Source: Vermamoeba vermiformis | Lineage: Eukaryota | DNA length: 64,000 nucleotides | Assembly: GCA_045837725.1 (NCBI GenBank) | Contig: JBEWZL010000309.1 | Span: forward strand, 1 to 64,000 | Direction: 5' to 3' | Shown here: in pieces, positions 19,411-56,567 of the stretch | Numbering within the stretch: position 1 is the stretch's first letter | Layout: each line of letters opens with the position of its first letter | Program-made: the position numbers and the translations under genes | Notes under the pieces: generated by a model | What the model was told of the DNA's origin: nothing | Database searches by the model: none | The model's input: the letters and a program-made list of their open reading frames with translations, nothing else

Positions 19411-22144
19411 ATATTTTTTTAATTTTTTTTATTATTTTTATTATAAACTCTTTTATCAAAAAAAGAGAAAAAAGAACAATCATCATAAATATACAAATCC
19501 AAAGCACAAAAAATGTTTTAAAAAAGTAAATTAAAAAAACAAAAACCTTTTTAGACCTTGACCACCTACTTATAGAAGTATGAATATACTCACGTCAACG
19601 CACATAAAGTACCGTCATAAATTCAAAAACATTTGTACGAAAAAATGTGTAAAAACCACCAAAAAAAGAAAAGGAACCAGTAAAAAAGTCTGACATGGTA
19701 TCATTATAATTTTTTTTTCGTTGAGCATTAAGTTTTTGTTCAAAGTTCATAAGACGAACTGATTTTTCTACATCATCTGAAATTTCTTCTTCAAAGCTCT
19801 GTTTTTGTACCTCAAATCGCTTCCTAAAAAGAGAGTTAAAAGAATCAACGCCAAGAAATTTTTTAAAATGTATTAAATAAGAATTATATAAGTCGATGGA
19901 CTTATCAAAGTTGACATCGTAATAGTCTTCAAATTTATTTACATTTAAAAAAAGTTTTCCCATCATACGCTCATAAAACGCAAAGACATATCACCCAACC
20001 AAATGGCGCGCTTTTTCAGCGTAATCATTAAAAAAAGAATGTATTTTAACAGCGTTGGGGGTAGCAAGAACAGAATAGTAGTAGTAAACTACACGAATCA
20101 ACAATGCATCATAATAATCTCAAAAAAAATGAAGCAATTTATCATAATACTTAACATGGATTAAATGCCATTGCGTAGAAGCGCTTAACGATGATAATTT
20201 GAAATACTGCGAATTATTTAGAAAACCAGTAACTGCTGTAGAAGTATACAATTTAAACTTCTTAATCTTAAACAATTCAATAAAGTCATTAACTAAAAGA
20301 GAAAAAATCTGAGATGCCGAAGAATTAAATAATTGTATAAAGTCGTGAGCGTATATTGAACTTGTATCAAGTATAGTATTAGTATTTAAAAAACTAAAAT
20401 AATTCCAATAGAACTTTAAAAAGTTAAAAAAACCATAAACATGAAATTTAGGGTGTAATAACCCTTGGTTTAAGGAATGTGCTTGCCGAACAAATGATCA
20501 ATAATAAGGCAACTCGTATTCAAGCTCCAATCTTGAATATTCCAAATCAAAAAGTCTCTCAAAATAGTACATAGGGTATTTGCTATTTAAGCCGATTTTT
20601 AAAAAAGACTTAATTTGGTCAGGCGTAATTCGAGAAGCTTTTTGAGTTTTAAAAAAGTAAGGAATAAATTGAACATTATTAAATCTTAAAAAATATGGTC
20701 GTACTCTTCTAAAAATATAAGAGGTATTATAATATAACAAATTAGCATAATGAGGGTTTACACCAAAAAAGTAGTTTAAAATCGATCTTAAGTTTGAATT
20801 AAAACGAAATAATCTTTTTATAGAAAAAAAATCTTCAATATTAGAAAAAACTAAATAATTTAATGATCTAAGCTTAAAAACAACATAATAAAAAAGCAAA
20901 TAAAAGCGACCGATAATTGATGAAAGGTTGGGGGTTTTAAAAAAAATAAAATACTGAAAAATAGCTAAATATTTTTGAGAATAAAAATAATAATATTTAA
21001 TTAATACAAAACGGTATAAAAAGTAAGATAATAATAAAACTGCAAGAATATAAACAATCGGAACTAAGTAAGCAAGAACTAAAACCAGTTTTAAAAGCAA
21101 AATACCTGCAGTTAATAAAGAATAAATGTAAATAAACTTAAAGGGTACATAAAATAGTAAATAAAAAAATTGTAAAATATATAAAAAATTTATTATTATA
21201 AAATAAATCAAAACAAAACTAAAAATAATTAAATTAAAAAAAACTCTACTAAATGGCCGTACTATATGAAATATATAATAACCATTTAAAACATCTTCGT
21301 AATCAAAATAACAATCCCTCAATAGAGCAAATTGTCAAACTTCATGCTTAATAACGCGAGTATCGGGTTGAATATCCTCAAATTGAGGATATTTTTTCGA
21401 AATACCAGGTTTAAAAATCAAAACAAAAGGTAAGTCACTTCAAACAAAAAGTAACTTTATTCAAATTATCATTCTTAAAATTAATTTTATCTGCTTTTTA
21501 GTCTTTATAATTTTTTTACGACGTAAAAATCTCAATAAAGAGACCAAATAACCAGTGATATACCAAAGACCGAATTTCAATAAAAGTTGAATAGGATAAA
21601 AAAGTGTTACAATACCCAAAAAAAATTTTATTAACCTGCGCCCAATACGAAACCTATGACCAACCCGCGTAGGTGAAGATGGTAAGTTTCAAATTTTTGA
21701 TCAAAGCGATCCTAGCGGTTGAACCGAACGCTTTATTAATAAAGCGTTCGGTTCAACCGCTAGGATCGCTTTGATCAAAAATTTGACCGAATAACCACAT
21801 ACATAATAAGACCGTCTATAAAAGTAATAACGGCGCATCAAACGCTCTTTTATTACTTTTAAAGTACCAAAATGATACACCAATTGAGCATATGGTTCAA
21901 TTATATGAGCTACTTTTATATAAGATCAAAACCCCAAAAACTTATAAAACAAAGCAACAAAGATACTCCGAAAAAGAAACAACGAAAGTAAAAAAACAGA
22001 CTTAAAAAGAAAAACGATGTAAATAGGTAAAAAAACTAAAAAATAAAATAATTTAAACAAAAATAAAAGAAAATACCTCACAATCAAAAGAAAAGAAAAG
22101 AAAATAATTTTAAAAAATAAAATAAATAACCTAAAAACTAACAT
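19403..22144 (-). CDS. Unassigned giant ORF (913 aa), several hydrophobic segments
   Basis: Four ORF-track pieces share one frame and the gaps contain only TGA. Overlaps the next ORF by 8 nt. Confidence 0.85.
21689..21786. repeat. 98-bp perfect palindrome with no loop, inside orf913
   Basis: TCAAATTTTTGATCAAAGCGATCCTAGCGG...TTATT|AATAA...; centre at 21737/21738. Confidence 0.97.
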
Positions 22145-23814
22145 AAAAAATTATTATTACTATTATTATTATTAACCCTCTTTGTAGGACTCTTTGAATT
22201 CAAAACATTAAAATGAGTGTTATATTGTCGCGAAAAAAACCAGTTTTCACTCGCTTCAGCAACTCCAAAAACATTTTGGTTTAAACTAAAAAAAAAATCA
22301 GCACCCCATATCGGCAAATCGTTTACATTAAAATAATCTAGATACAATGGAAAAGGTGGTGGTAAAATAGAAGCAGAAAAAAAAGACAACTTATTTGTAG
22401 TTAAGTACATATTTTTAGGGAAAAAAAAGCCATTATGGTGGCGATAATTATCAATATAGGAAGATGTAATGGAAAATATGTTAGAAAAAACCCTGTCCTT
22501 TTGATAAATATAGTAAAAAATTTTATCAACAGTTTTCTTACTGTTATAAGTAAAAGTTAAATTAGAAGATAACAAAAAATCATATATATTCCTCTTTTCA
22601 AAAAAATTTAAATTTTTTTGAAAAGAGGAATATATATAACGATAAAATTTCACTAATAAATTCTTTGAAGTCTCCTTTAAAGAAGCTTTATATAAATTCA
22701 TCTCAAAGTTAAACTGACCTGTTGATACTAAATCTGAAATTTTTACAACACGAGCTAAAGTGGCATAAAAAAAAGCTCATAGGTGCGCATGAAATAGCTT
22801 AAATATAAAAACTAAAGTGACATTAAAAATAGGCAAAACTATTTTTGAATATAAAAAACGCCGAATATTAAATCTGTTAAAATATGTAAAAAACTGAACT
22901 AAAAAGAATATACGTCAAAATATAAAAATAAAACCAAAAGTCGTAGCTCAGCCCATAAAGTGTAAGTCTATAAATTGATCATAATAAAACATGGAGGCAG
23001 CAGACTGAGAGACACCCCAACAAATTAAAAAAGAAAACAGAAACATAAAAAAATAAATTTCTCAACGATAAAAATGCCCATTGTCATCTCATTCAACAGG
23101 ATGTTGCGGATAAGCGAAATTCACCTCTTCATTATCTTCGATAGACGGCTCAATAACACCACGTCTATCTTCACGAAAAAAATATCAATGATTTTGAGCT
23201 TCCTCCTCATCAATCTCCTCAGTTTCTCGTCTATTTAAGGAACCATCCTCTATCATACGAGTATAAGTAAACGAAAAAAAATAAATCATACCTAAATAAA
23301 TCGAAGCATAAAACATCTCCAGAGTAGAATAAAAATGATGTCGCTTAAAATAAAACATTACAAAAGAGGAAGACATAAGCTTAGGACTAAAGGCATAGCA
23401 TTCAAGAGTATGTGAATAGAGCAATAAAAAAATACGCGTATGCTTCATAGCTCACGCATGTTTTTTCGATTTTCCGTAAGTACGAACATTATAATCACCA
23501 AACATTCGATCTACATTAAGCAGATTTCTATATGGTTTCATGTGTTTATTATAAGCAGCGTGCAAATAGGTCTGGCTAAAATATGTTCTATAATTATAAT
23601 TATAATCTAACTTCATAAAGCTTAGATTTTGAAACCCAAAATCTGAATTAAAGGAATAACTATAAGTAGAACCAAAATTATTAAAAAATCAGAAAAACAT
23701 AGAATGTAAAACTTCTAAGGTAAAATCATAAAAAAATAAATCAGAAAAAAAAGAAAGCTCAGGTTGAGCAATTAAAAGAACCAATAAGGCAGAAGATAAA
23801 ACAACCAAAGGCAT
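22138..23814 (-). CDS. Unassigned ORF (558 aa)
   Basis: ATG at 23814 to TAG at 22138 with only TGA in between. Overlaps orf913 by 7 nt. Confidence 0.83.
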
Positions 23815-23913
23815 ATATTTTTATTTTATTTTTATTTTTATTAAATAAAGTCGATACCGCATACGACTTAGCCTCAAAAATGTTTTATAAACTTCTAAAG
23901 CGCATCTTAAACA

Positions 23914-24114
23914 CATCCGGAACAAGCAGGCTACTGCTTGGTATGTGTTGTGTTAAGTGCTCGTGCGTCAGGGTTGGCAGGGCGGCGGGACTTGAACCCG
24001 CAATTTCTGGTACCCAAAACCAGCGCGTTAGCCAATTCCGCTACACCCTGCCAACCCTGACGCACGAGCACTTAACACAACACATACCAAGCAGTAGCCT
24101 GCTTGTTCCGGATG
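23914..24114. repeat. 69-bp perfect inverted arms (23914-23982 / 24046-24114) enclosing tRNA-Pro
   Basis: CATCCGGAACAAGCAGG...GTTGGCAGGG and its exact reverse complement. Confidence 0.97.
23977..24050 (-). tRNA. trnP: tRNA-Pro(UGG)
   Basis: Acceptor CAGGGTG/CGCCCTG, loop TT-TGG-GT, T-arm GCGGG-TTCAAGT-CCCGC. Confidence 0.93.
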
Positions 24115-24146
24115 CGGCAATAGGCGGGCGCATAACCACCTATTGC

Positions 24147-24218
24147 TGTCCGAGAGTGGAATCGAACCACCGACCTAATGATTTTCAGTCATTCGCTCTA
24201 CCACTGAGCTACTCGAAC
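24147..24218 (-). tRNA. trnF: tRNA-Phe(GAA)
   Basis: AATGA-CTGAAAA-TCATT anticodon arm. Confidence 0.95.
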
Positions 24219-24220
24219 GG

Positions 24221-24307
24221 CAAGGAAAGTGGGATTTGAACCCACGATGCGGGAGACCGCAAAGTTCCTTAGCAAAGAACCGCCTTAAACCGCTCGGCCA
24301 TTTCCTC
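24221..24307 (-). tRNA. trnS: tRNA-Ser(GCU)
   Basis: Loop TT-GCT-AA, long variable arm. Confidence 0.93.
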
Positions 24308-24326
24308 ATTATGGTAAGCAACCGAC

Positions 24327-24399
24327 TGGAGTTGACAGGACTTGAACCTGCAACCTTTTACATGCAAAACAACCGCTCTCCCAATTGAGCTACAACCCC
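24327..24399 (-). tRNA. trnA: tRNA-Ala(UGC)
   Basis: GGGGTTG/CAACTCC-A with G3.U70; loop TT-TGC-AT; weak anticodon stem. Confidence 0.9.
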
Positions 24400-24418
24400 T
24401 TTTCTGACTTAATAGAGA

Positions 24419-25219
24419 TTAACTTATTACAATTCAATTACCTCAACAATAAACAGAAAAGTAAAGGAAAAGTCAAACTACGTCCACAAAGTGTCAGTAT
24501 CAAGCAGCAAACTCAAAACCTAAATGGTGGCCAGGAGTAAGATGTTTCTGCATAAATCTTATAAAACAAACAATCAAGAAAATCGTACCCACAATTACAT
24601 GAAGGCCGTGCAAACCTGTAAGCATATAGAACGCTGAACCATACACACCATCAGAAATACCGAATGGAGCAGAAACATACTCTTGAAGCTGCATTAAAAT
24701 GAATAAAATTGCTAAAGTAATAGTAGCGACAAAACCCCCGACAGCATATTCGTACAGCTTTCCTAAAACAGCTCTATGGGCTCAAGTAATCGAAGCACCA
24801 GAAGTTAAAAGAATTAAAGTATTTAAAAGTGGAACACCATATGGACTAAAAACAGATAAACCAACCGGAGGTCATTCAGCACCAACTCAAATAGAAGGAA
24901 CCAAACTAGAATGAAAAAATGCCCAAAAAAAGGCAGCGAAAAACATAATTTCTGAAGCAATAAATAATATAAAACCAATCTTCAACCCTCTTTGAACAGC
25001 AGTTGAATGATAACCTAAATAGGTAGACTCCCTAATAACATCTCGTCACCAAGCCACTAAAGTTATTACTAACATTATAAAACCAATCATTGCTAAGTAA
25101 CCACCGAATAAATAAAAGTGCATATACATAACAGTACCTGTAGTCATAAAAAGCAAGCTAAAAGCTGTTAAAAAAGGTCAAGGACTACGATCAACCAAAT
25201 GGAATAAATGTCTTTTCAT
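24419..25219 (-). CDS. cox3: Cytochrome c oxidase subunit 3 (266 aa)
   Basis: [23 protein letters not shown] and AAWYWHFVDVVW (W=TGA). Confidence 0.97.
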
Positions 25220-25604: not shown

Positions 25605-25655
<51 letters not shown>

Positions 25656-25669
25656 AACCTACTTCTGCT

Positions 25670-25704
<35 letters not shown>

Positions 25705-25921
25705 GATCCCGGCGATGAGGACTCTTGGGGATCATTAGCCTGTTATCCCTAGCGTACCTTTTATCCGTTGAGCGATGACTTTTCCACATAATATCACCGG
25801 ATCACTATGACCGACTTTCGTCCCTGTTTGGCGTGTCTGCCTAACAGTCAAGCAAACTTATACCATTGCGCTCTAAAGATTCAGAAAATCTTGAGTTTAC
25901 CTTTGCACGCCTCCGTTACTT

Positions 25922-25952
<31 letters not shown>

Positions 25953-26228
25953 AACCATGCATTGTCTTAAATATCAATTAGTTCAAAAAAAATAAAAGAA
26001 CACTATTTCATTGTTGCCTCAAAAATTGGCCGGAGCCAAGTTCTCATAGGCTAATGTCTATCCTACACATTTATTTTTCTTAAACAGTACAAAGGTGAAG
26101 TAAAGGTGCATAGGGTCTTTCCGTCTTGCTGCGAGTACTCCGCATCTTCACGAAGAATTCAATTTCGCTGAGTAGGTACTGGAGACAGTGGGGAAGTCGT
26201 TACACCATTCATGCGCGTCAGCAATTAA

Positions 26229-26268
<40 letters not shown>

Positions 26269-26322
26269 AGCCGCCGTTTACTGGGGCTTCAATTCTTGGC
26301 TTTAACCAATCCTTTTTACCTA

Positions 26323-26360
<38 letters not shown>

Positions 26361-28065
26361 ACGATTTAGCAGAGTCCTGTGTTTTTATTAAACAGTCGCT
26401 ACCCCCTATTCTGTGCCACCTTTCTAACTAGTATAAACCTTTAGATATTACTCTAAAAAGCTTTCATGTAAAAAAGGTACTCTTTCTCCCGAAGTTACAG
26501 AGTCATTTTGCCGAGTTCCTTCAATACCCTTCTCTCAGTCACCTTAGTATTCTCTACTTAACCACCTGTGTCGGTTTTCAGTACGGTTAAAACTACTAAT
26601 GTAATAGTAGTAAGTTTTAGTTATTTTGTAGTAAGTCATTTTAAATAGAATTCCAAATCTAAATGGAATTCTATTTAAAATGACTTACGTCACTAAAACT
26701 AGTTTGTAAATATTAATCACAAAACCCATTATATCAAATTATCATTTAATACTTAGGGGCCGACTAACTCTTCGTGGTAGAACCTAGCGAAGAAAACTTT
26801 GGTTATTCGGTGATAATGATTTTTAAAAACATTATTTGCGCTACTCATGTCAGCATACTTAAAACAGAAGGCTCGATTAAAACTTACATTTTAACTTCAA
26901 AGCGTACAGTTCATTCTACTACCAAAAAAATTAATCTGTAGTTTCGGTGTAAATCTATAAAACCTATTATTGTTGAAACTCTAAAACAAATTGTTAGTGA
27001 GCTGTTACGCTTTCTTTAAAGGATGGCTGCCTCTAAGCCAACCTGCTAACATTAAACGTAAAAGAGCAATCTTAATTATTTAGAATTAACTTCCGGACCT
27101 TAACTTACAAGAGGGGCTGTTCCCCTTTTGACCAACGAATCTTCGCACTCGCAGTCTGATTAAAGCGCTTAAAATTTAGTCATTCGGAGTTTCAATAAGT
27201 TCAAAATATTATTATCGAAATCCCTAGCTTATTTAGTGCTCTACCTACTAAATTTATAACACCTCACTCTACCTAAATAGATTTCGTAGAAAACCAGCTA
27301 TCACCAAGTTTGTTTAGCCTTTCACTCCTAACCACAAGTCATCCGCGTCTCTTTCAACAGACGTCGGTTCGGTCCTCCAATAGTGTATTACGCTACCTTC
27401 AACCTGCTCATGGTTAGATCACTTGGCTTCGGGTCTAATTTATCTAACTTAACGCTCTAATTAAAACTCGCTTTCGCTACACCTAAACTTAAAATTTTAA
27501 GTTTGCTAGATAAATTAAGTCGCTGACCCATTATGCAAAAGGTACGCCGTCACTTTACGCTCCGACTGCTATTTAGCCGTTAATTTCAGTATCTTTTAAA
27601 TTTTCTTTATGAATTTCTTTTTAACCGTTTCCCTCACGGTACTTGTTCGCTATCGGTAACTTATATTTTAAAGGCTTAGTAGGTGGTTCTACTTTATTCA
27701 GACAAAGTTTCACAGGCTTCGCCGTACTCATAATTAAAAAGGGGTTCCATAATACGGGGCATTCACCCTCTACGGCTCTAACAATTTCCAACTAGGTATT
27801 CTTATGGTAAACCCAAATTAAAAGACCTTATACAGTTTCGCTCACCACTACTACCGTATTCTCGATTGATTTCAACACTACAGGTACTGAGATGTTTCAC
27901 TTCCCTGCAGTCATTTTTATAAATTTATAAATTTCGTTTACAAAAATTGGAAAAATAAACTTTATTGACTCTTTAAAGCTCAGTCTATATTTTCGATATT
28001 AGTATCGTCCAAGAATAAGTTCCTAGGCATCCTTCAACGGCTTTGTCTAATGCTAGATCAAGTTT
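25300..28065 (-). rRNA. rnl: Large subunit rRNA (ends approximate)
   Basis: Conserved motifs GAAGTGAAACATCTCAGTACC, GGTAGCGAAATTCCTTGTC, GGGATAACAGGCT and GGCACCTCGATGTCGGCTC. Confidence 0.96.
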
Positions 28066-28083
28066 ATATACCAGCAATTGGTT

Positions 28084-28159
28084 TGACGGGGGAATGGATT
28101 TGAACCACCGACCTCCAAGTTATGAGCATGGCGAGCTAACCGGACTGCTCTACCCCGCC
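28084..28159 (-). tRNA. trnM: tRNA-Met(CAU), initiator-like (IR left)
   Basis: GGCGGGGTAGAGCAG...GCTCG D-arm of fMet type; loop CT-CAT-AA. Confidence 0.85.
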
Positions 28160-28169
28160 TTATTTGAGT

Positions 28170-28385
28170 TTAAATAAAACAACAAATAAAAATTAAAATA
28201 AATAAAGAAAATTTTAAATTTTCTTTAACTATTGTACTTAAATAAGAAAAATCTCTAAAATTTGAAAAAAGAAATAAAAAATAATCTTGAACCAAGTAAT
28301 AAAAACCAATTATAAACGGATACTCCAAATTATTAACGGAAAAAAAGTACAAAAAAGTATTAGCTAGGTACTTATAGTTTAGCAT
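28170..28385 (-). CDS. Small hydrophobic ORF (71 aa), possible divergent sdh4 (IR left)
   Basis: IIGFYYLVQDY resembles the Sdh4 G...DY motif; size fits; weak match. Confidence 0.4.
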   Translation of the reverse strand: MLNYKYLANTFLYFFSVNNLEYPFIIGFYYLVQDYFLFLFSNFRDFSYLSTIVKENLKFSLFILIFICCFI

Positions 28386-28418
28386 AAAAAAATATTAAAA
28401 ATCGTGATTAAAATAGTA

Positions 28419-28503
28419 TGCTCGCTATCGGACTTGAACCGATACTCTTCCAGAAAGAAATAAGTTTTGAGCCTATCGTGTCTACCAATTACACCAAGCG
28501 AGC
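28419..28503 (-). tRNA. trnL: tRNA-Leu(CAA) (IR left)
   Basis: ATAGG-CTCAAAA-CTTAT, variable arm. Confidence 0.92.
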
Positions 28504-28517
28504 TTATTTTTATTATT

Positions 28518-29132
28518 TTAGTAAAATCTTCAAAAATTTAAGTCATTTACAGGGCGATCTACCTGATCAGAAATTGACTGTTTCTTTGTATAAATGTAAG
28601 AGGACTCTGCAGAATTAGGAATATCTAATGTAAGCATAATACTACTTATCATAGCTAGTAATAACAAAATACCGGAAATTATTAAAAATGGACTAAAATA
28701 AGTGTACAAAACCAACCCTAATGATACAACATTTGAGTGGCTTAAAAAACTCTTATACCAGTCTACATAAAGTACAGTTGAATAACTATAACCGATAGAG
28801 AAATAAAGAGAAAAAACAATTTCAAAAAAAATTAAAAACCCTACAATAGTTGCTAGTGGAAAATATCTATTTAATATTTCACTTAACTCAACAACTCGTA
28901 TATTTAGCATCATAACAATAAAAAGAAATAAAACAGCAATAGCACCAACATAGACAATAATAAGAACCATGGCCAAAAAGTCGACTTCGAGTAAAACAAA
29001 CAACTGAGCGGATAAACAAAAAACAACTACAAGAAAAAGAACTGATTGAACAGGATTTTTCGAAAAAATCACAAGCAGCCCAGCTAAAAATATCATAACA
29101 GCCAAGCAAAGAAAAACAATGTCCGTCAACAT
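28518..29132 (-). CDS. nad6: NADH dehydrogenase subunit 6 (204 aa; IR left)
   Basis: KNPVQSVLFL and IIVYVGAIAVLFLFIVMMLN. Confidence 0.95.
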
Positions 29133-29142
29133 TAATGCTACG

Positions 29143-31191
29143 CTACCCTATATTTCCATGTTCCGAAATAAATAAAGAATAAAAACGCTTAAAAGCGATA
29201 TACTCTGCGACAACCCTTTCCTTATAAAATAAAAGCTCTGAAGAACTAATAAAAGCGGAATATACTAAAAAATCAGATAAAGACTTATACGAATCTCAAG
29301 TTTTATTGTTTATAGAGTTAATAATAAATAATTTATTCGAAAATACTACGCCATTATTAGATAAAAAAGATATTAAATATTCAATATAACCCGACTTTAA
29401 GTCCGGGGTACTTTGATCACCAGAAAAGAATTTTACCAAAAAAATTAATTTTTTTTGGTAAAGATTAAAAAGAGTCATAACATGACTACCATTAGTTCTA
29501 ATAAGCGGAAAAAAGTTTACCAAGAAAGAGTCATTTAAAGCTTGTTTGAAATCAGGTTTAAGCTGATCTAATGGATTTATATAGTTGTGGGAACCTCTTA
29601 TAACTTTACGGAATTTCCTCCGAAATTTATAAAAAAATAAAGGCAAAGTATTTAATTTTCAAGCAAAATTTAAAACTAAAAAGCTTCGAGAATCAATATA
29701 ATCAGGATGTTTAAAGTAATCGATATAGTAACGCTTGGTTGAAGGATAAAATAAATTCATATATGGGTAGACAACATATTCATGAAGTCGTTCATGTCAT
29801 TTAGGATCAAAGTGACCCATACGCTTTACAGGATAATCAGTTTGAATCCTCCAACCAGGGGTAAGGTAATCTATATTAAAATAAGTTTTATAGTAAGAAG
29901 CTTGAAGCTCAGTAAAAATTTCCTCATGAAATCAAGTCTTGTAAAACCAATGTATATTACTGCTATCAACATTGTTTAAATCAAAAAAAACCTCTTCACG
30001 CCGTTTATCCACAAACCTGGAAAAAAACAAAGGCACATGGTCCTCCCACCAAAGAACATCCTCTCAAGCCCAATGCTCATGAGGATAAGAATCTAAGCCC
30101 TTTTTCAAATTCCAGTAGGAAGGACGAAAAAATGAAAAATATGTTTTTAACTCGTCCCAACCCAATATTTCATCGTCAAGTCTAGAATAGAATATGTGAG
30201 CATACTTGGGGGTAGTAGATGAAAAAAAATTTTTTAAATACCTAAATTTGGTTCCATGAGAAAACTGGTTTGAATTGTAAGAATTTGAGAAGTAAGAAGG
30301 AAGACCAGTATTATTAGAATTAGAAACTGATTCTTTCAAAAGTCAAAAAATAAAAGTAAAATGTAATTGTAAATAGTTGTTAGATCGGAATATATTCATG
30401 AATTCCATTTCAGTAGGAGGGAGCTGAGCAGGCGTAAAAAAATTAGAGCTACGAGGATCAATTAATAAATCTGAGGAATTTGTATTTAAATAGTTATATT
30501 GCAATTGCTGTTTAGCTCAATACTTAAAACTCATACCAGGAGCCCTAAAAAGCCTAAATTCAAATTGTTCGGTCCTGCGTCATCTTAAATAAAAATTACG
30601 CATATTTCTTCTAGCAAAAAGCCATTTTTTTTTACGTAAAGGAAACCAACTATTTAAGGCCATAAAGTTTAATTTTCGAAGTCTAATTAAATTTCTATGG
30701 GCTTCAAAAGTATAGTAATACTTTAGGGCCTTATAATCATTATAGCGAACATATTTTCAACTACTAGTTACGTATTCATGAACATGCTGCGCATTTTTCT
30801 TCGTTTCATGTCGACGTACGGATTCATTTAGTAACGAAAGATAACTAAAAAAAGCCGGTGATTTAGAAACATTAACGGTATTGATTTCAAAAATGTTATT
30901 AATAAAAATTTCAAAAGTCGATAAAAAATTGTAACCCTCAAAACTATAAATAGAATTATTTTTAATTTGTCTTTTGGACCTTAGTTTATTCGTCCTCTCT
31001 GGATCTCTTCGACCAGACCCAGACGGAAATCAATAATAAAAAGAATTTGATTTATCTATAAAAGACAGTTTCTTTAAACTGTACATTTTAGAAAGACTAA
31101 ATTTAGATTTATAAAGTTCCTTATTTATATAATCTAAATAAAGATTAACAGAATTCGGATCAAAATCCAGCATACAAAACAACATATACAT
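29143..31191 (-). CDS. Unassigned ORF (682 aa; IR left)
   Basis: Mirror of 58436-60484; open when TGA is read as Trp. Confidence 0.83.
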
Positions 31192-31207
31192 ATATTATTA
31201 TAAAAAA

Positions 31208-31281
31208 CACGCCCTACAGGAATTGAACCTGTAACCGTTGGCTTAGGAGGCCAGCGCTCTATCCAATTAAGCTAAGGGCGC
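31208..31281 (-). tRNA. trnR: tRNA-Arg(CCU) (IR left)
   Basis: TGGC-CTCCTAA-GCCA. Confidence 0.92.
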
Positions 31282-31283
31282 TA

Positions 31284-31355
31284 AGGTCAGAAACGGACTT
31301 GAACCGTTACCAAAAAATTTGCAGTTTTCTGCACTACCAGTTATGCTATCTGACC
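31284..31355 (-). tRNA. trnC: tRNA-Cys(GCA) (IR left)
   Basis: GGTCAGA/TCTGACC-T, loop CT-GCA-AA. Confidence 0.92.
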
Positions 31356-31738
31356 TAAGCAACAGCAACAGCCGCCCCTCAAATAAGATGTGAAGATAAG
31401 AAAAGTACTGATAGTATAATTAGCAACAAGGAAAAATTGAAAAAAAATTTGAAAAAAGAAACCAAATCTATATCTAAATAGTTTATATTTATCTCGTCAT
31501 AATCTATAAAATCCTCGCCCAACGATGAAATTATATAGAAAGCTACAATAAACTCTGATATAAAAATTATGTCCAAAAAATAACAATATAAAAATTCACT
31601 AAAAATACTAAAAGAAAAAACTGAAAAAATAAAATTAATAAATACAGCTACCAATACAAAACGTAAAAATAATGAAAAAGTAGAATTAGTTTGAGGTTTA
31701 TAAACAAGAATATGCGGTGAATATAATTTTGAACTCAT
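31355..31738 (-). CDS. sdh3: Divergent succinate dehydrogenase subunit 3 (127 aa; IR left)
   Basis: N-terminal SPHILVYKPQTNSTFSLFLR matches the Sdh3 SPHLxIYxPQxTSxxSIxHR pattern. Confidence 0.7.
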
Positions 31739-31740
31739 AT

Positions 31741-32421
31741 TTAATAATGGGGTGAATGAACTTTTTTATACTTTATATATTTTGACATACCAGCAAGTCT
31801 GCCTAGTAGTATAGATTTAGAAACTGTAATAGAACAAAATGTTATAGAGCTCACCGCATCATCATTACCAGGTAATGGATATAAGATATTGCTAGTATCA
31901 ACAGTAGAATCTGATAGGGAAAATATGGGTAAGTTTATAGTTCTGGCTTCTTGGTAAGGTAGAATACTATTACTAACATTAAAAGTAAAAACAGCGGTTG
32001 GAAGTCGAGTAGCACCTCTTAAGTTTTGCATGAATTCTTGGCTTCAAGTTCCAATAAAGGAGCCCTTTTTAAAATCAGGAATTTTCCTTAAAAAAACGAA
32101 TTTTCAATTAGTCAACAAACCACCTCGTCATTTATTCAAAATCATAGGTTGCTGAATGATGTTATTCATCCTATAAAGTAAGTAGTTTAAAGCTGGGTCT
32201 AAATTGACGAAAAGTACAGAGCCAAATTTTGATGATAATCGAGACAATGACAAACAAGCTTTCTTCCAAAAAAACACAGCCTTTGCAGGAGAAATAATTA
32301 ATGTAGAATAACGAACACCAAAAATGTATCACGTTGAAAAATTACTGCTTTGAGTTAAGGGATGTCCAATATGAACAGCGTTATATATAAGCTGCGAAAA
32401 TTTTAATTTTACAATTTTCAT
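31741..32421 (-). CDS. rps2: Ribosomal protein S2 (226 aa; IR left)
   Basis: AVHIGH, WRGGLLTNW and YPLPGNDD. Confidence 0.9.
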
Positions 32422-32453
32422 AACTATAGAATAAATATTACAAATGATAAAAA

Positions 32454-32702
32454 TTAACCGTAAAGGATTAAAAAAGCTATCATGATGGCCAAAAGACCCA
32501 TAGCTTCAGTTAGGGCGAAACCTAAAATAGCGTATCGAAATAACTCAGCACGGATCATTTCATTGCGGGCTGCAGCGTTCATATAACCTGAGAAAACAAC
32601 ACCAATACCCATACCTGCTCCAGCAACACCGATGGTAGCTAAACCAGCACCGATAAATTTCGCTGAAGTGGTTAAAGAAGCAAAAAATACAGAATTTTCC
32701 AT
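32454..32702 (-). CDS. atp9: ATP synthase subunit 9 (IR left)
   Basis: [18 protein letters not shown] and LGFALTEA. Confidence 0.97.
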
Positions 32703-32755
32703 ATTTAATTAAAAATAATAAATTTTATCTTTTTAAATTAGACAAATTTGACACG

Positions 32756-32829
32756 CATGCTTGAAAGGACTTGAACCTTTAACCTTTAAATTCGCAACTT
32801 AACGCTCTAACCAATTGAGCTACAAGCAT
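32756..32829 (-). tRNA. trnR: tRNA-Arg(GCG) (IR left)
   Basis: TTAAG-TTGCGAA-TTTAA; acceptor ATGCTTG/CAAGCAT. Confidence 0.88.
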
Positions 32830-32832
32830 AAT

Positions 32833-32905
32833 AGGCGAAGGTGAGAATTGAACTCACGACACTTGGATTATGATTCCAAAGTTCTACCAACTAAACTACT
32901 TCGCC
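32833..32905 (-). tRNA. trnM: tRNA-Met(CAU), elongator-like (IR left)
   Basis: TTGGA-ATCATAA-TCCAA. Confidence 0.85.
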
Positions 32906-32907
32906 CG

Positions 32908-32981
32908 TAGGCCCGGATGGAATTGAACCATCAACCTCGCACTTATCAGATGCGCGCTCTAACCAATTGAGCTACAGGCCC
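32908..32981 (-). tRNA. trnI: tRNA-Ile(GAU) (IR left)
   Basis: CGCAT-CTGATAA-GTGCG. Confidence 0.94.
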
Positions 32982-32986
32982 ACGAA

Positions 32987-33059
32987 TAGGCACACGGGGA
33001 CTCGAACCCCGAACCCTTGGATTAAGAGACCACTGCTCTACCAATTAAGCTATGCACCC
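32987..33059 (-). tRNA. trnK: tRNA-Lys(CUU) (IR left)
   Basis: Loop CT-CTT-AA; acceptor GGGTGCA/TGTGCCT. Confidence 0.9.
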
Positions 33060-33071
33060 TAAATAAAAAAA

Positions 33072-34567
33072 ATTGGTCCAGCCGCAGGTTCCCCTACGAC
33101 TACCCTGTTACGACTTCGCACCAGTCCTTAGCTTTAATGTTATAAGCAGTAATTTTAATCTATATAAATTTGTGAAAAAAATTGCTTAACAAAAAAAACT
33201 TAAGAATTATAATCCTCTACTTATGTCAACCAAAACTAATTTCCAGCGCGTGACGGGCGGTGTGTACTAGGGCTGAGGGGGTATTCACCGTACCATTCTG
33301 ATATACGATTACTAGCGATTCCAACTTCATGTATCCAATTTTCAGGGTACAATCTGAACTGAGATACGTTTTTTGAGAATTGCTAAAATTTACATTTTTG
33401 CTTCCCTTTGTACGTACCATTGTAGCACGTGAGTAGCCCAGCCCATAAAGGTCATAACGACTTGACATCATCCCTGCCTTCCTCTTAGATTTCCTAAGCA
33501 GTAAACTTATATATAAGTTAAGGGGTTGCGCCCGTTAAAGGAGTTAACCTAACATCTCAAAACACGAGCTGACGACAGCCATGCAACACCTGTGTAGGTC
33601 AATACTCATTAACAATAAATGAGCATAATTTTAACTAAAAAATTTTAAACCTACTTATCAAGAGCTGGTAAGGTTTTACGCGGTATATCGGATTAAACCA
33701 CATGCTCCACCGCTGAAATAGCCCTCCGTCAATTCCTTTAAGTTTGAACCTTGCGGTTGTAGTTCCCAGGCGGAATACTTACGCGTTAGCTTAAATACCC
33801 CCTTACGGTTAGGAGCATTTAGTATTCATCGGTCACTGCATAGACTACCGGGGTCTCTAATCCCGTTTGCTACCTATGCTTTTGCGCTATAGTGTCAGTT
33901 TATAGTAGAAAGTCGCTTTCGCCCGTAGACTGTCCTTCTAATTTTTGCAAATTTCACCTCTACACTAGAAGTACAACTTTCTTCAAATAAACTCAAGCGC
34001 GGCCGTATTTTTAAGGACCTCAAATTATGTTTGAGTATTTAAAAAAAAACGTACCACACCACCTTCACGCCCTTCACGCCCAGTCAAGTTGAGTAACACT
34101 AGCCCCCTCCGTTTTACCGCGGCTGCTGGCACGAAGTTAGCCGGGGCTTCTTTTTCGAATACTGTCATTATCATCTTCGACGAAAGGATTTTACAATCTA
34201 AGCCTTCCTCACCCACGCGGCATTGCTGGATCAAGCTTTCGCCCATTGTCCAATATTCCTCACTGCTGCCAAAAAGTTCGGGATGTAACCGTCCCGCTGT
34301 GGCTGATAGTCCTCCAAGACCAGCTAAGGATCGTAGGCTTGGTAGGCTAAGCCCACTACCAACTACCTAATCCTATACAAATATGTCTATTAAGCGAGAA
34401 ATCTTTAATAACTAAAGTAAGTTAAAATATTTAGTATTAGCTAAACTTAATATACACAATTTGTACGTTACTCACCAATACGCCATGAAATAATTTAATT
34501 CCATACGACTTGCATGTGTAAGGCATACCGCTAGCATTCACTCAGAGCCAGGATCAAACTCTTAATT
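33072..34567 (-). rRNA. rns: Small subunit rRNA (IR left; ends approximate)
   Basis: AGAGTTTGATCCTGGCTC, GTGCCAGCAGCCGCGGTAA and AAGTCGTAACA. Confidence 0.97.
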
Positions 34568-34632
34568 GTTTTATTAATCTACTTAAATAGATTAACATAT
34601 ATGGATCTTTTATTGAAACTGAATCAAAAAGA

Positions 34633-34707
34633 CGAGGGCGATGGGATTTGAACCCACACCTTCTAACATGACAAGCTAGCGTTCTAACCAGTTAGCACTA
34701 CGCCCCC
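34633..34707 (-). tRNA. trnD: tRNA-Asp(GUC) (IR left)
   Basis: CTAGC-TTGTCAT-GTTAG. Confidence 0.92.
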
Positions 34708-34731
34708 AGCTTATATATATATTATTTAACA

Positions 34732-34820
34732 TGCCCGCTGACGGACTTGAACCGTCACCTCCGCTTATAAGAAAGAACAGATTTTAAGTCTGTCGTGTCT
34801 ACCAATTTCACCAAGCGGGC
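34732..34820 (-). tRNA. trnL: tRNA-Leu(UAA) (IR left)
   Basis: ACAGA-CTTAAAA-TCTGT, variable arm. Confidence 0.94.
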
Positions 34821-34841
34821 AAAATAAAAGAAAAAGAGATA

Positions 34842-34915
34842 CGCTCCGGATTGGGATTGAACCAATAACCTCACGGTTAACAGCCGAGCGCTCTAGCCAA
34901 TTGAGCTACCGGAGC
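34842..34915 (-). tRNA. trnN: tRNA-Asn(GUU) (IR left)
   Basis: CGG-CTGTTAA-CCG. Confidence 0.93.
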
Positions 34916-34952
34916 ATTATTTAGCTATATTTTAATACAAACTCAAACCTAA

Positions 34953-35025
34953 TACGCCCTATGGGACTTGAACCCATATATTTGCCGTGAAAGAGCAACA
35001 TCCTAGCCTATTAGATGAAGAGCGC
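34953..35025 (-). tRNA. trnE: tRNA-Glu(UUC) (IR left)
   Basis: TTGCT-CTTTCAC-GGCAA. Confidence 0.93.
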
Positions 35026-35072
35026 AATAACCACAAACCTAACCTTTAAAAAAACAGGTAACTTAATACAAC

Positions 35073-35145
35073 CTGGGGTAGTAGGAATTGAACCTACGCA
35101 TGGTGCATCCAAAGTGCACTGCCTTACCGACTTGGCTATACCCCA
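35073..35145 (-). tRNA. trnQ: tRNA-Gln(UUG) (IR left)
   Basis: GTGCA-CTTTGGA-TGCAC. Confidence 0.94.
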
Positions 35146-35155
35146 ACCTGAAATT

Positions 35156-35254
35156 ATTAAAAAAATATAATTTGATATTATAATGGCACTTTTATTAATT
35201 TATCATTCAAATTAATAAAAGTGCCATTATAATATCAAATTATATTTTTTTAAT
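35156..35254. repeat. Hairpin with 46-bp perfect arms and a 7-nt loop between trnH and trnQ (mirror at 54373-54471)
   Basis: 35156-35201 is the reverse complement of 35209-35254. Confidence 0.95.
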
Positions 35255-35291
35255 TTCAATAAAAAGTACAACTTAAAAAACTTTAATAGAA

Positions 35292-35365
35292 GGCGAGTAA
35301 TGGGACTCGAACCCACAGCCTCTACAGTCACAACGTATTGCTCCACCTATTGAGCTATACCCGCC
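35292..35365 (-). tRNA. trnH: tRNA-His(GUG) (IR left)
   Basis: Loop TT-GTG-AC; G-1 and C73 are encoded. Confidence 0.92.
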
Positions 35366-35376
35366 TATTATTAATA

Positions 35377-46599: not shown

Positions 46600-49092
46600 A
46601 TGTTCTCGAATGATTTTAATATTCCATTTTTTTTTGATAATACTTTAAATAAGAAATTTAAAGTTTTCGGGCAGGTTTTGTATATTTATTTTGATCCTAC
46701 TTTTCGCCGTTATGTTTCTGTGATTGATGTGGGCTTAAAGCAAAGGTCTACTATTTTTGTGGATGAAGTTTTTAAATATAGGAAGTCTTTTTTAGATAAT
46801 AATTTTCAGTTTATATTTTCAAAGAAGAAAGATACCTTTTTTTTAAAGCCCGTTCATTTTTTGAATTCAAAAAATGAACGGGCTTTAAAAAAAAGGTATC
46901 TTTCTTTTTCAGACAGGGGGTTTTCATTTTTAAAATTGAATCAGTTTTCATTTTTAAATGTAAAATATTTTACATTTAAAAATGAAAACTGATTCAATTT
47001 TAAAAATGAAGCAATGCTAAGTTTATTAAGTTTGAAGTCTTTGCATTTTTACCGCTTGTTAAAGTCTTATAAAATTTATGCTTTGATTTTTTTAAATTTT
47101 TTAAAAAATTTAAAGCATAAATTTTATAAGACTTTAACAACTTTTATTCTTTTACGATTTTTAGTTCTTAACACTTTAAATATTTATAAATCGTTGCTAT
47201 ATGCATATTATGTTCAACATAAGGTGAATTTATCTCGGTTTTTATCGTGGTTTGATTCATTTAAGAATAAAATCTTAACTATTTTTGTTTATCATTTTTC
47301 CGATTTAAATTTAAAAAAACTACCTTTAAATGAGTCAAATAGTTTTTTTAAATTTAAATCGGAAAAATCTTTAACACATCATTTTGATTTTTTAAAAAAT
47401 AGCAGTAAGTTAAAGAAATTAAAGAAGCGTAAGGTAATTAGTAAATCTAAAAGAATAAATTATTTTTTAAAAAATCAAAATAGACTTTATTTACGAGGTT
47501 TAAATGAAAATTCTAACTTATTTAATCTATCAAAATTTAATTTTGATAGATTAAATAAGTTAGAATTTTCATTTAAACCGTATTCTTTTAAATTTAATAC
47601 TAGTCGGTTTAATTTTTTAAATTCACATTTTGACTCTAGACCTGTAGCTCTTAACAAGAAATTAAGGACCCCTAATTATTTTTCAGTTCTTACCAGGGGT
47701 CGCGCTTACGCTTTAGTTAATAAGTTTTCTTTTTTTAATATTTTTACATATAGCGCATTTTTGCGTCGTAAAATATTTAAGAATTGGTTAAAGTTTTTAA
47801 TATATTATGAAAAATTAAATTATTTAGTTATTTTGAATAATGAAGAAGTTTCGCTTGATAAACGACATTCTTTAAATTTTTTTTATTCTCTGTATTTCCC
47901 TTTAATTTTTAATTTTCGAAATTTATTCTTTAATTTATTGAAATTTTTTAAATCTATAAAGGCTATTCATGAAAATTTACTTTTTAAAAATTTAGGTTTT
48001 TGGTTTTTAAAAAAAAAGAAATTCAATAAACGATTTTTTGGTATTTTGTTAAACTTTTTACTACTTAGTAGTAAAAAGTTTAACAAAATACCAAAAAATC
48101 GTTTATTGAATTTATCTTCGGTGTACTATAAATCTAATTTTAAGGGTTCAAATCTTTCTACCTTTAATAATTTGGGTTTAATAAAATATATGTTTTTAGG
48201 TTTTTTTAATATTTTTTTGGAAAATGTAAATTATTTATATACAAATTTAAAACTTAATGAAAAATTTATAAACAATAGTTTAGCTAAACTATTGTTTATA
48301 AATTTTTCATTAAGTTTTAATACTTTAGTTTATAATAGAAATCATTTAAGTTTAAATACGAATATTGAAGACTCGAAAAGTTATTTAAATACAGCATGAA
48401 TTCCAGTTTTTAAGATATTTAAAAGTTTAAGAATAGTCTCAAAATACGCTAAAAAATATCGCCGTAGAGCAAATTTTTCTAAAAGAAAAAAATTTAAATC
48501 TAATTTTAAAAAACGCGGTCATTTTTTAGCCCCTATTGGTACATCTTTTAGATTCCAAAAATTATTTATTTATCCTTTTAAAGTTAGGTCTCTAAATACC
48601 CAGGATTGATCTGCTTCAATTAGAAGGGTTCGAGTTTCTCCTACTCTTTCGCGTTATGGCGCTTATTTAAATCGCCTTAATGCTTTGTCTAGGAAATTTA
48701 AAAGTAAAGTTAGGCTTTTTCCGCTGAGAGTTTTTAAAAACCGTTTGAGTATGAATTTTGATAAATCAAAGTATTCTTCTTCTTCAAATATTTATTACCA
48801 GCGTTTTTTAACTAACCTTTTACCTAAGACATCAAGAATTAAGAGGTCTTTAAACATTATAAAAATGGATCGCTTTATTAGGAAGTGAGATAAAAATCAG
48901 TTTTTTGCTAATCCCGTTAATAAAAATATAAAACGCAAATTTATTAAAGAGAAATTTAAAAATAGAGAGTTTAATAAATACTCGTTTAACAGAAAAAATT
49001 CTTATAATCGTGCTTTCACACATAAAAGTGTATCTTTTAATTCATCTAAGAGACCCTTTTATAAGAACCGATCTACTAAACGATTCTACTAA
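46600..49092 (+). CDS. Very basic 830-aa ORF, probably an expanded ribosomal protein S1
   Basis: Three ORF pieces in one frame joined by TGA. N-terminal VFGQVLYI...VIDVGLK resembles an S1 domain. Lies directly after rps11. Confidence 0.55.
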
Positions 49093-54250: not shown

Positions 54251-54261
54251 TATTAATAATA

Positions 54262-54554: not shown

Positions 54555-54601
54555 GTTGTATTAAGTTACCTGTTTTTTTAAAGGTTAGGTTTGTGGTTAT
54601 T

Positions 54602-56555: not shown

Positions 56556-56567
56556 TTTTTTTATTTA

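What the first reader, a model, noticed from the sequence alone, without database searches (positions are those of the whole stretch)
23914..24147. tRNA-Pro acceptor stem extended by 64 perfect base pairs
Seen: the flanks of the only trnP are exact reverse complements, about 50% GC in an AT-rich genome and continuous with the acceptor stem, so the precursor would be a tRNA on top of a long dsRNA rod. Position 73 is C rather than the A typical of tRNA-Pro; alternatively CCA follows the stem with no discriminator. A second hairpin (GGCAATAGG...CCTATTGCT, about 24116-24147) abuts it, and the element sits just upstream of the orphan ORF cassette. Established: RNase P and RNase Z normally act on unpaired leaders and trailers. 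Inference: this needs unusual processing (for example an RNase III-type cut or 3' repair), or it acts as a processing or attenuation element for the cassette, or it is the scar of an element inserted at the tRNA.
Basis: partly seen in the sequence, partly recalled or inferred. Interest (0 to 1): 0.72.

Follow-up and report, generated by a model that had tools for sequence, protein, structure and literature searches.

The report
Mitochondrial tRNA-Pro inside a long palindrome
The only proline tRNA gene seen in this amoeba-like mitochondrial genome sits in the loop of a real, 60 to 69 base perfect inverted repeat that differs between strains and is most likely one product of a palindrome-making copying error that has shaped the whole genome.

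Summary
Arms 23914-23982 and 24046-24114 are 69 nt and 100% complementary, with trnP(UGG) on the minus strand in the 63-nt loop. Five acceptor pairs run straight into 64 leader:trailer pairs, and base 73 is C.

Two things change the reading.

First, the window is a mitochondrial genome (TGA=Trp, tufA, identical rRNA inverted repeat) with 17 other distinct long perfect palindromes, 13 of them inside ORFs. Ten of 10 shuffles gave none.

Second, contigs of two independent DNA runs carry a variant that lacks 9 nt on the trailer side. That variant has 60-nt arms, A73, and a 9-nt bulge beside the RNase P site. The in-register 69-bp rod with C73 was seen only in the window.

The 9 nt occur nowhere else except as their reverse complement in the opposite arm. 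That is the signature of hairpin-templated copying; a deletion in the other direction is not excluded.

I read the element as a strain-variable template-switch palindrome seeded at the acceptor stem. A designed processing device or an insertion scar fits less well. The RNA consequences, a 55-64 bp leader:trailer duplex, are inferred and untested. I class it as a new variant of a known kind, of moderate interest.

The parts
23977..24050 (-). tRNA-Pro(UGG) gene. C1-G72. Base 73 = C (23977) in this strain. No other trnP in the window.
   Evidence: ARAGORN (23976-24050); Rfam RF00005, 61.5 bits; sequence read
24046..24114 (-). Right arm: 64 nt of 5' leader (24051-24114) plus tRNA positions 1-5.
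   Evidence: 69 nt, 100% complementary; unique in the window
23914..23982 (-). Left arm: tRNA positions 68-72 plus 64 nt of 3' trailer (23914-23977). After tRNA release it would lie in the 5' UTR of orf558.
23969..23977 (-). Nine bases present in the window but absent from contigs of runs X3 and X7. They turn A73 into C73 and put the long helix in register with the acceptor stem.
   Evidence: table 4 (9 left out at 23969; loop contig of 132 nt with 0 other differences); (the 9-mer occurs once, its reverse complement once at 24051, and it is not a tandem copy of its neighbours)
24051..24059 (-). Complement of the variable 9 nt. Present in all strains seen. In the 60-nt-arm strains it is the 9-nt unpaired leader bulge next to the RNase P site when the tRNA's own acceptor stem forms.
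24117..24146 (-). Second hairpin (11-bp stem, 8-nt loop, GC-rich) between the trnF 3' end and the right arm. It has one G.U pair on the transcribed strand only.
   Evidence: folds; sequence
24147..24399 (-). Upstream tRNA cluster trnA-trnS(gct)-trnF, preceded by cox3 (24419-25219). Same transcription direction.
22138..23814 (-). orf558, first of three large ORFs without a Pfam family (orf558, orf913, orf961), downstream of trnP. It contains its own perfect palindrome at 22582-22637.
47056..47140 (+). Context: coding palindrome in orf830. Here the window strain carries a derived 9-nt deletion that broke a perfect palindrome with 47-nt arms.
21689..21786 (-). Context: perfect 49+49-nt palindrome with no spacer inside orf913. 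It is one example of the 17 other distinct perfect palindromes.

Best explanation
The element is a long inverted repeat made by intramolecular template switching during mitochondrial DNA synthesis, and later remodelled by the same process. A nascent strand ending in the tRNA's 3' acceptor strand (CCCTG) folded back onto a CAGGG in or just upstream of the tRNA's 5' end. It then copied the opposite flank as a reverse complement. This genome does the same at many places, which is why it holds many unique, perfect palindromes. At trnP the repeat exists in two states. The common state has 60-nt arms, A73, and a 9-nt unpaired stretch next to the RNase P site. The window's state has 9 more bases, exactly complementary to that unpaired stretch. 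They fill the bulge, put 64 leader:trailer pairs in register with the acceptor stem, and change base 73 to C. At the RNA level the consequence is inferred only. Pre-tRNA-Pro carries a 55-64 bp leader:trailer duplex that a helicase or a double-strand-specific nuclease must open before or after the RNase P and RNase Z cuts. The window's bulge-free version should be the poorer substrate. I take the rod to be a tolerated by-product of the mutational process, with no built-in regulatory purpose. Shown: the repeat, its two states, the genome-wide palindromes, and the templated nature of the 9 nt. Inferred: the copying mechanism, the direction of the change, and every RNA-level step.
For: (1) The repeat is real outside the window's assembly. 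In 2 of 2 DNA runs laid (X3, X7; different studies, with SNPs against the window) the contig graph breaks as an inverted repeat should. There is a 60-nt arm unitig fitting both 23914-23973 and 24055-24114, and a 132-nt loop contig with 30-nt overlaps. The stretch is held by 20 of 24 listed runs from 15 studies.
(2) The strain difference is a 9-nt block whose only other occurrence in 64 kb is its reverse complement in the opposite arm. It differs from its left and right neighbours at 6 and 3 of 9 positions, so it is not a tandem duplication.
(3) Genome context: 28 perfect hairpins with arms of 16 nt or more, against 0 in 10 of 10 shuffles. That is 17 distinct loci besides trnP, each with its own sequence, and 12 of the 17 have a spacer of 0-1 nt. 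Thirteen lie in ORFs, including nad9 and rps14. The 9.7-kb large repeat copies are identical at 9739 of 9739 positions.
(4) The palindromes are dynamic. At 47056-47140 another strain's protein (P0006) matches exactly the 31-residue peptide of a perfect 47-nt-arm palindrome built from the window's left half. A 58-60% identical relative (P0008) also has the 3 extra residues.
(5) No other tRNA behaves this way: 1 of 148.
(6) Literature: template switching is proposed for perfect mitochondrial coding palindromes with concerted arms (PMC6649704, passages and Results part 2). It is also described as creating and maintaining RNA hairpins (PMC8794818, abstract).
(7) A relative in run X18 has 70 unlike letters in place of the 95 between trnP and trnF. 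The arm is therefore not conserved beyond the species.
Against: The direction of the 9-nt change is not established. A slippage deletion between the two CAGGG repeats, starting from an ancestral 69-bp form, explains the data equally well, and the one palindrome I could polarise (47056-47140) changed by deletion. I did not lay the two runs that may be the window's source. That the 69-bp form is in their reads rests only on their word shares (0.99 against 0.96 or less in the other 12 DNA runs). The arms are 50-55% GC in a spacer background of 29%, while all other palindromes are AT-rich (GC 0.05-0.39). A pure by-product model does not explain this, and it could point to selection on RNA stability or to origin from an older structured RNA. 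The 60-nt arms show no difference between the haplotypes seen, which also fits selection. No DNA of a close outgroup could be obtained.
Confidence: 0.6

Rival explanations
1. The rod is a selected RNA processing or regulatory device. A leader:trailer stalk, like the stems that loop out bacterial rRNAs, is cut by a double-strand-specific nuclease or unwound in a controlled way. This releases tRNA-Pro and sets the 5' end, stability or translation of the orf558-orf913-orf961 message, or it attenuates read-through from the rRNA/tRNA/cox3 region.
For: The arms are unusually GC-rich for this genome's spacers (0.55 against 0.29). The 60-nt arms are identical in every haplotype seen. A second GC-rich hairpin with a strand-specific G.U pair abuts the rod. 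The position is exactly between the tRNA cluster and the orphan ORFs. Extended acceptor stems with a bulge at -1 are known to promote RNase P cleavage in some precursors (PMC8457004 passages), and the common strain form has such a bulge.
Against: There is no covariation, because the arms do not vary. Perfection cannot count as evidence here, because 17 other palindromes, most in coding DNA, are equally perfect. The arm is not conserved in the nearest relative seen (X18). The window's strain has lost the bulge and changed base 73. No RNA end data are available, since all runs were contigs.
Confidence: 0.2
2. The inverted repeat acts at the DNA level, as a cruciform or hairpin that serves as a replication origin, a recombination or resolution site, or a pause site.
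For: Long perfect inverted repeats can extrude hairpins on single-stranded DNA. It is the longest-armed hairpin in the window.
Against: The cumulative GC skew turns at about 35-36 kb, where gene orientation flips and a repeat-rich non-coding region lies. It does not turn at 24 kb. A 63-72-nt loop disfavours cruciform extrusion (general knowledge). Nothing marks this palindrome apart from its tRNA loop and its GC content.
Confidence: 0.07
3. It is the footprint of a mobile element with terminal inverted repeats, or of a GC-rich hairpin element, that inserted at or carried the tRNA gene.
For: The arms are GC-rich against an AT-rich background. GC-rich hairpin elements are known in some fungal mitochondrial genomes (recalled, not checked here).
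Against: The arm is found only at its two places in 64 kb, allowing up to 3 mismatches, and short-word BLAST finds no partial copies. There is no direct repeat at the outer ends. The trnP 34-mer has 0 matches in viral contigs and genome contigs. No Rfam family matches.
Confidence: 0.05
4. The perfect 69-bp form is an assembly or polishing artefact of the window, and only the 60-nt form exists.
For: Only the 60-nt form was seen directly in laid contigs. Palindromes are hard for assemblers.
Against: Two runs flagged as possible sources hold 0.99 of the sampled words. The other 12 DNA runs hold 0.95-0.96. That gap is about what I estimate the loss of the words spanning the 9-nt junction would give, since X3 and X7 show no other difference inside 23600-24500. 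This is inference; I did not lay those two runs.
Confidence: 0.05

Closest known systems
Template-switch (quasipalindrome) mutations that create or perfect hairpins (abstract of PMC8794818; start of the abstract of PMC7202029 in the listing)
   Same: A reverse-complement copy of nearby sequence makes a perfect stem in one event. The 9-nt strain difference is complementary to the opposite arm, and the switch points sit at short inverted microhomology (CAGGG/CCCTG).
   Different: Described cases are mostly short stems of a few to about 10 pairs. Here the stem is 60-69 pairs, the seed is a tRNA acceptor stem, and the result alters a discriminator base. The direction of change is not proven here.
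[quoted passage not shown]
   Same: There are many long, unique, mostly 100% perfect inverted repeats in a mitochondrial genome, including inside conserved genes. Arms evolve in concert, and differences lie at distal positions or are indels. This window has 13 such repeats in ORFs, and some of the peptides they encode are conserved in 58-66% identical relatives.
   Different: This is a protist with TGA=Trp. The arms here reach 49 nt in ORFs, against up to 284 bp in hairworms, and most are AT-rich. The passages I read describe no case with a tRNA gene in the loop.
Extended acceptor stems of nuclear pre-tRNAs and the MALAT1 mascRNA (passages of PMC8457004)
   Same: Leader:trailer pairing extends the acceptor stem coaxially. 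A bulge just 5' of the RNase P site matters. A paired trailer delays RNase Z.
   Different: Those extensions are of the order of 6-10 pairs, not 55-64. They are not perfect palindromes at the DNA level. Processing of the present precursor has not been observed.
Processing stalks that loop out bacterial 16S and 23S rRNA and are cut by RNase III (recalled textbook knowledge, not checked here)
   Same: A mature RNA sits in the loop of a long duplex formed by its own flanks.
   Different: No nuclease, cut site or conservation is shown here. The stalk is strain-variable and absent from the nearest relative seen.
Palindromic genes of the Polytomella magna mitochondrial genome (PMC3787674, part 1 of the text read)
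   Same: A mitochondrial genome dominated by distinct, identical-armed palindromes, with possible links to expression.
   Different: There the genes themselves are duplicated within arms of 240-3100 nt. Here the gene is single and sits in the loop, and only its flanks are repeated.

Membership tests
tRNA (Rfam RF00005), proline isoacceptor UGG | Cloverleaf covariance-model score above the gathering threshold, with a Pro anticodon | tested here: met
   61.5 bits against 29; ARAGORN anticodon tgg
tRNA-Pro of bacterial/organellar type | A73 discriminator with C1-G72 (recalled as typical; not checked against a database here) | tested here: inconclusive
   C1-G72 is present. Base 73 is C in the window but A in the contigs of runs X3 and X7.
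Template-switch-derived inverted repeat | The difference between relatives is a reverse-complement copy of adjacent sequence, not a local duplication | tested here: met
   The 9-mer is unique. Its reverse complement is unique in the opposite arm. It differs from its neighbours at 6 and 3 of 9 positions.
Template-switch-derived inverted repeat | An ancestral state lacking the repeat or patch, shown with an outgroup | not testable with these tools
   No close relative's DNA was obtained. The only hint is 70 unlike letters in the X18 relative.
Genome-wide mitochondrial palindromes with concerted arms (Nematomorpha-like) | Strong excess of long perfect inverted repeats, including inside conserved genes | tested here: met
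   28 observed against 0 in 10 of 10 shuffles. Thirteen lie in ORFs, including nad9, without an insertion relative to the Pfam model.
RNase III-type processing stalk | The flank duplex is conserved across species with compensatory changes, and a defined double-strand cut exists | tested here: inconclusive
   There is no variation in the arms among the haplotypes seen, and the leader is unlike in the X18 relative. RNA ends cannot be read from contigs.
Mobile inverted-repeat or GC-hairpin element | Multiple dispersed copies and a target-site duplication | tested here: not met
   The arm matches only itself. The outer flanks share no direct repeat.
Replication origin or control region | Coincides with the skew switch, the strand switch and a non-coding repeat region | tested here: not met
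   The skew minimum and gene-strand switch are at about 35.4-36.3 kb, with a 17-nt array, not at 24 kb.

The most novel reading that the evidence does not exclude
The 55-64 bp leader:trailer duplex is a maintained RNA device. In the common form the 9-nt bulge lets RNase P in. The remaining duplex then keeps the excised leader annealed to the 5' UTR of orf558 as a double-stranded cap that controls stability or translation of the orphan ORF cassette. It would be kept perfect and GC-rich by hairpin-templated, GC-biased conversion. The window's strain would be a natural mutant in which the bulge is filled and the discriminator changed.
Probability: 0.15. Interest if true: 0.75.

Novelty: new variant of a known kind. 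Interest (0 to 1): 0.52.

Why it matters
Leader:trailer pairing is known to tune RNase P and RNase Z, but only over a few base pairs. Here nature supplies a precursor with a 55-64 bp duplex, and it comes in two versions. One has a 9-nt bulge and A73. The other has no bulge and C73. Both occur in a protist whose sequence turns up in water, biofilm and soil data sets. That makes a ready-made comparison for asking how mitochondrial tRNA processing copes with double-stranded flanks and with a changed discriminator base.

The locus is also a clear example of a single reverse-complement-templated patch that either perfects or erodes a long stem. This bears on how RNA hairpins arise and stay paired.

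The wider observation may be the more valuable lead. This protist mitochondrial genome holds many perfect palindromes, 13 of them in ORFs, with some of the encoded peptides conserved in distant relatives. That resembles the hairworm case. The two searches I ran listed no paper whose title described this for this kind of genome.

Tried and rejected
1. Close relatives' DNA. The search for related loci with cox3 in metagenome contigs kept 80 loci, all only 47-61% identical. The TGA codons probably pushed the true relatives down the tblastn ranking. I used those loci only as a tRNA control.

2. A 34-nt trnP pattern found 0 matches in viral contigs and 0 in genome contigs.

3. No whole genome is held for the window. 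I could not see the end of the large repeat or check for a second trnP outside the window.

4. Earlier findings of the scan. There was nothing for this genome. The single look-alike by sequence is an unrelated bacterial tRNA-trailer repeat.

5. RNA runs. The X15 contig covers 24055-24800 and stops at 24055, followed by letters that I recall as a library adapter. The X18 contigs cover orf558 only up to 23781. These are contigs, one run each, so I draw nothing from them about RNA ends, expression steps or attenuation.

6. Word shares of runs I did not lay serve only as a weak argument that the 69-bp form sits in the two possible source runs.

7. Arm origin. Short-word BLAST of 23815-24146 against the window found no source for the arm. 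It found only a 21-nt identity between the T-arm/acceptor of trnP and trnW. A permissive Rfam scan gave only sub-threshold microRNA-precursor-like hits, meaning 'a long hairpin'. The idea that the 96-nt trnF-trnP spacer is a decayed tRNA gene therefore has no support.

8. Exact look-up of five window proteins. Only nad9 is in the collection. Its cluster shows the palindrome-coded residues conserved but gives no DNA.

9. The Polytomella magna 'palindromic genes' turned out to be a different architecture, with genes in the arms.

10. A GC-rich spacer at 32422-32754 was tested as a possible small RNA: no Rfam match at E up to 1.

Full report
WHAT THE WINDOW IS

Pfam finds cox1, cox3, nad5, nad6, nad7, nad9, atp1, atp6, cob, ribosomal proteins and an EF-Tu gene. 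Long reading frames appear only when TGA is read as Trp. Rfam finds bacterial-type large and small rRNAs twice, in inverted orientation. The two copies of this large repeat are identical at 9739 of 9739 compared positions.

This is therefore a gene-rich mitochondrial genome. All genes from about 35 kb leftwards, including trnP, are on the minus strand.

A review passage says that a mitochondrial tufA has been reported for the amoeba Vermamoeba vermiformis (PMC7194472). A preprint gives 61.7 or 67.1 kb for its mitochondrial contig (10.1101/2021.04.23.440484). The stretch also turns up in wastewater, aquifer, biofilm, soil and root data sets. All of this is consistent with that species or a close relative. 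It is inference only, and nothing below depends on it.

THE OBSERVATION

The arms are 23914-23982 and 24046-24114: 69 nt, 100% complementary, 63 nt apart. The tRNA-Pro(UGG) gene lies on the minus strand at 23977-24050.

Reading, C1-G72 up to position 5-68 are the inner five pairs of the repeat. 6-67 is a T.G pair and 7-66 is G-C. Outside the tRNA, -1 (24051) pairs with 73 (23977), and so on for 64 pairs.

Base 73 is C, and the minus strand reads C-C-A-A after G72.

Controls:
- The arm is unique in the window; 0 of 100 shuffles gave a match.
- Ten of 10 dinucleotide shuffles had no perfect hairpin arm above 14 nt.
- Of 148 tRNAs (39 in the window, 109 in 80 unrelated loci), none but trnP had more than 7 leader:trailer pairs, even with a lenient choice of register.

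The second hairpin (11-bp stem) is there too.

FIRST CHANGE OF PERSPECTIVE: THE GENOME IS FULL OF PALINDROMES

A scan for perfect hairpins with arms of at least 16 nt and loops of at most 120 nt gives 28 entries. Eight belong to a 17-nt tandem array, and two pairs are the same site in the two large-repeat copies. That leaves 18 distinct loci, trnP being one.

Features of the other 17:
- Each has its own sequence.
- Arms run from 16 to 49 nt.
- Twelve have a spacer of 0 or 1 nt.
- GC is 0.05-0.39.
- Thirteen lie inside ORFs: eight in orf830, and one each in orf913, orf558, an unnamed 187-codon ORF, rps14 and nad9.

In nad9 the Pfam alignment shows no insertion at the palindrome.

Homologues of orf830 that are 58-66% identical keep several palindrome-coded peptides almost unchanged, while the surroundings diverge. 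This is the picture described for hairworm mitochondria: perfect repeats, arms evolving in concert, and template switching proposed as the cause (PMC6649704).

Perfection of the trnP stem is therefore not, by itself, a sign of a designed RNA device.

SECOND CHANGE: THE STEM DIFFERS BETWEEN STRAINS

Twenty of the 24 listed runs, from 15 studies, hold the 901-nt stretch or part of it. I laid four runs, all as Logan contigs.

In both DNA runs (X3 and X7; different studies; same SNPs against the window) the graph breaks exactly as at an inverted repeat:
- a flank contig ending 30 nt inside the arm;
- a 60-nt unitig that fits 23914-23973 and 24055-24114;
- a 132-nt loop contig covering 23944-24084, with 9 letters left out at 23969 and no other difference.

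These strains therefore have 60-nt arms and a 72-nt loop. After G72 their trailer starts with A, so the usual A73 is present. The nine leader bases 24051-24059 have no partner.

Folding the two forms:
- Window form: MFE -196.3 kcal/mol, acceptor stem in register, no unpaired leader base at the RNase P site.
- Other form: MFE -174.2 kcal/mol, with tRNA positions 68-72 paired to the upstream CAGGG.
- Other form with the tRNA's own acceptor stem enforced: -165.9 kcal/mol. The nine bases then form a bulge directly 5' of the cleavage site.

Passages in PMC8457004 state three relevant points. Pre-tRNAs with extended acceptor stems need a bulge or mismatch at -1 for efficient RNase P cleavage. Continuous coaxial extension is harmful. 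A paired trailer inhibits RNase Z. By that standard the common form looks processable and the window's form looks worse.

WHAT THE NINE BASES SAY ABOUT MECHANISM

The 9-mer occurs once in 64 kb. Its reverse complement also occurs once, at the mirror position in the other arm. It is not a copy of either neighbour (6 and 3 mismatches of 9).

If it was inserted, the only available template is the opposite arm. That is the textbook signature of a quasipalindrome template switch: the nascent 3' end CCCTG pairs with the tRNA's own CAGGG, copies nine bases, then returns.

If it was instead deleted from a 69-bp ancestor, slippage between the two CAGGG repeats suffices.

I could polarise one other palindrome. 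At 47056-47140 the window lacks three codons that both a 98-99% identical strain protein and a 58-60% identical relative have. A perfect 47-nt-arm palindrome built from the window's left half encodes exactly the other strain's 31 residues. Small deletions that erode perfect palindromes therefore do happen in this lineage.

Both directions are live at trnP. I lean 60:40 to the 60-nt/A73 form being older. It has the canonical discriminator and the bulge. It was the form in both DNA runs laid. All 12 non-source DNA runs listed have the lower word share that the indel alone would produce (weak inference).

Either way, the origin of the long arms needs an inverted copying event primed at CCCTG/CAGGG. 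The locus is unstable at its inner edge.

WHAT REMAINS UNEXPLAINED

The arms are 50-55% GC. The only other intergenic 64-nt windows at or above 50% GC are at 32561-32609 and its repeat copy. I found no source for the arm sequence.

A more distant relative present in one RNA run has 70 unlike letters in place of the 95 between trnP and trnF. The arm is therefore young or fast-changing, yet it shows no substitutions among the haplotypes seen.

This leaves room for the rival that the duplex is selected at the RNA level. I give that rival 0.2. I give 0.15 to the bolder version, in which the annealed leader caps the orf558 message.

REJECTED READINGS

- A mobile-element scar: no other copies and no target duplication.
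- A replication origin: the skew and strand switch lie at 35-36 kb.
- An assembly artefact for the repeat as such: it is in independent runs. For the extra nine bases, an artefact is unlikely but not directly excluded.

COMPARISON AND VERDICT

The element works like a template-switch hairpin and belongs with the perfect mitochondrial palindromes known from hairworms. As an RNA it is an extreme case of an extended acceptor stem.

In the passages and abstracts I read I found no tRNA gene in the loop of a 60-69 bp perfect repeat, no such repeat with natural bulge and no-bulge variants, and no description of this for an amoebozoan mitochondrial genome. The searches listed nothing to that effect by title. 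I did not read all of the listed papers. One strain-comparison paper on these mitogenomes that I recall is not in the library and was not seen.

I file it as a new variant of a known kind, of moderate interest. The genome-wide palindromes are a lead at least as good as the trnP locus itself.

Noticed in passing
window 21689-21786, 22582-22637, 44047-44120, 44580-44611, 46825-48320 (eight sites), 50647-50686: Thirteen perfect palindromes (arms 16-49 nt, mostly no spacer) lie inside ORFs, including nad9 and rps14. orf830 alone has eight. Several palindrome-coded peptides are better conserved in 58-66% identical relatives than their surroundings.
   Followed up: partly
window 47056-47140: The window strain has a 9-nt deletion in the right arm of what is, judging by another strain's protein, a perfect 47+47-nt palindrome. 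A distant relative also keeps the three residues.
   Followed up: yes
window 1-2780: The window begins with a 143-nt tandem array, 19.4 copies at 100% identity and with no ORF. It ends inside trnR(tcg), so each unit carries a piece of that tRNA. It could be a chromosome end, or the place where the assembly stopped.
   Followed up: no
window 35366-36349: A non-coding region at the point where gene orientation and cumulative GC skew turn. It holds a 17-nt x 15.9 perfect tandem array (35656-35925) and two perfect palindromes (35988-36053, 36250-36299). It is a likely control region.
   Followed up: no
window 37972-38044 and many ORFs: TGA is used as Trp throughout (for example 10 times in cox3), yet the only tRNA-Trp in the window has anticodon CCA. 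Either C34 is modified or edited, or another tRNA-Trp lies outside the window or is imported.
   Followed up: no
window 23979-23999 and 38022-38042: trnP and trnW share an identical 21-nt T-arm/3' acceptor segment and the 5' GGGTGTAG (79% identity overall). Their anticodons are reverse complements of each other. This suggests gene conversion or recruitment between them.
   Followed up: partly
window 39907-41109: A complete EF-Tu (tufA) gene in a mitochondrial genome, which a review passage notes as rare outside jakobids.
   Followed up: partly
window 32422-32754 and 56873-57205: A 333-nt spacer in the large repeat with a GC-rich core (32561-32609). It has no ORF and no Rfam match at E up to 1. 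It is a candidate divergent small RNA such as a 5S rRNA.
   Followed up: partly
window 25627-35657 and 53970-64000: The large inverted repeat copies are identical at 9739 of 9739 compared positions, and the repeat extends 292 nt beyond trnH. Its outer end lies beyond the window.
   Followed up: partly
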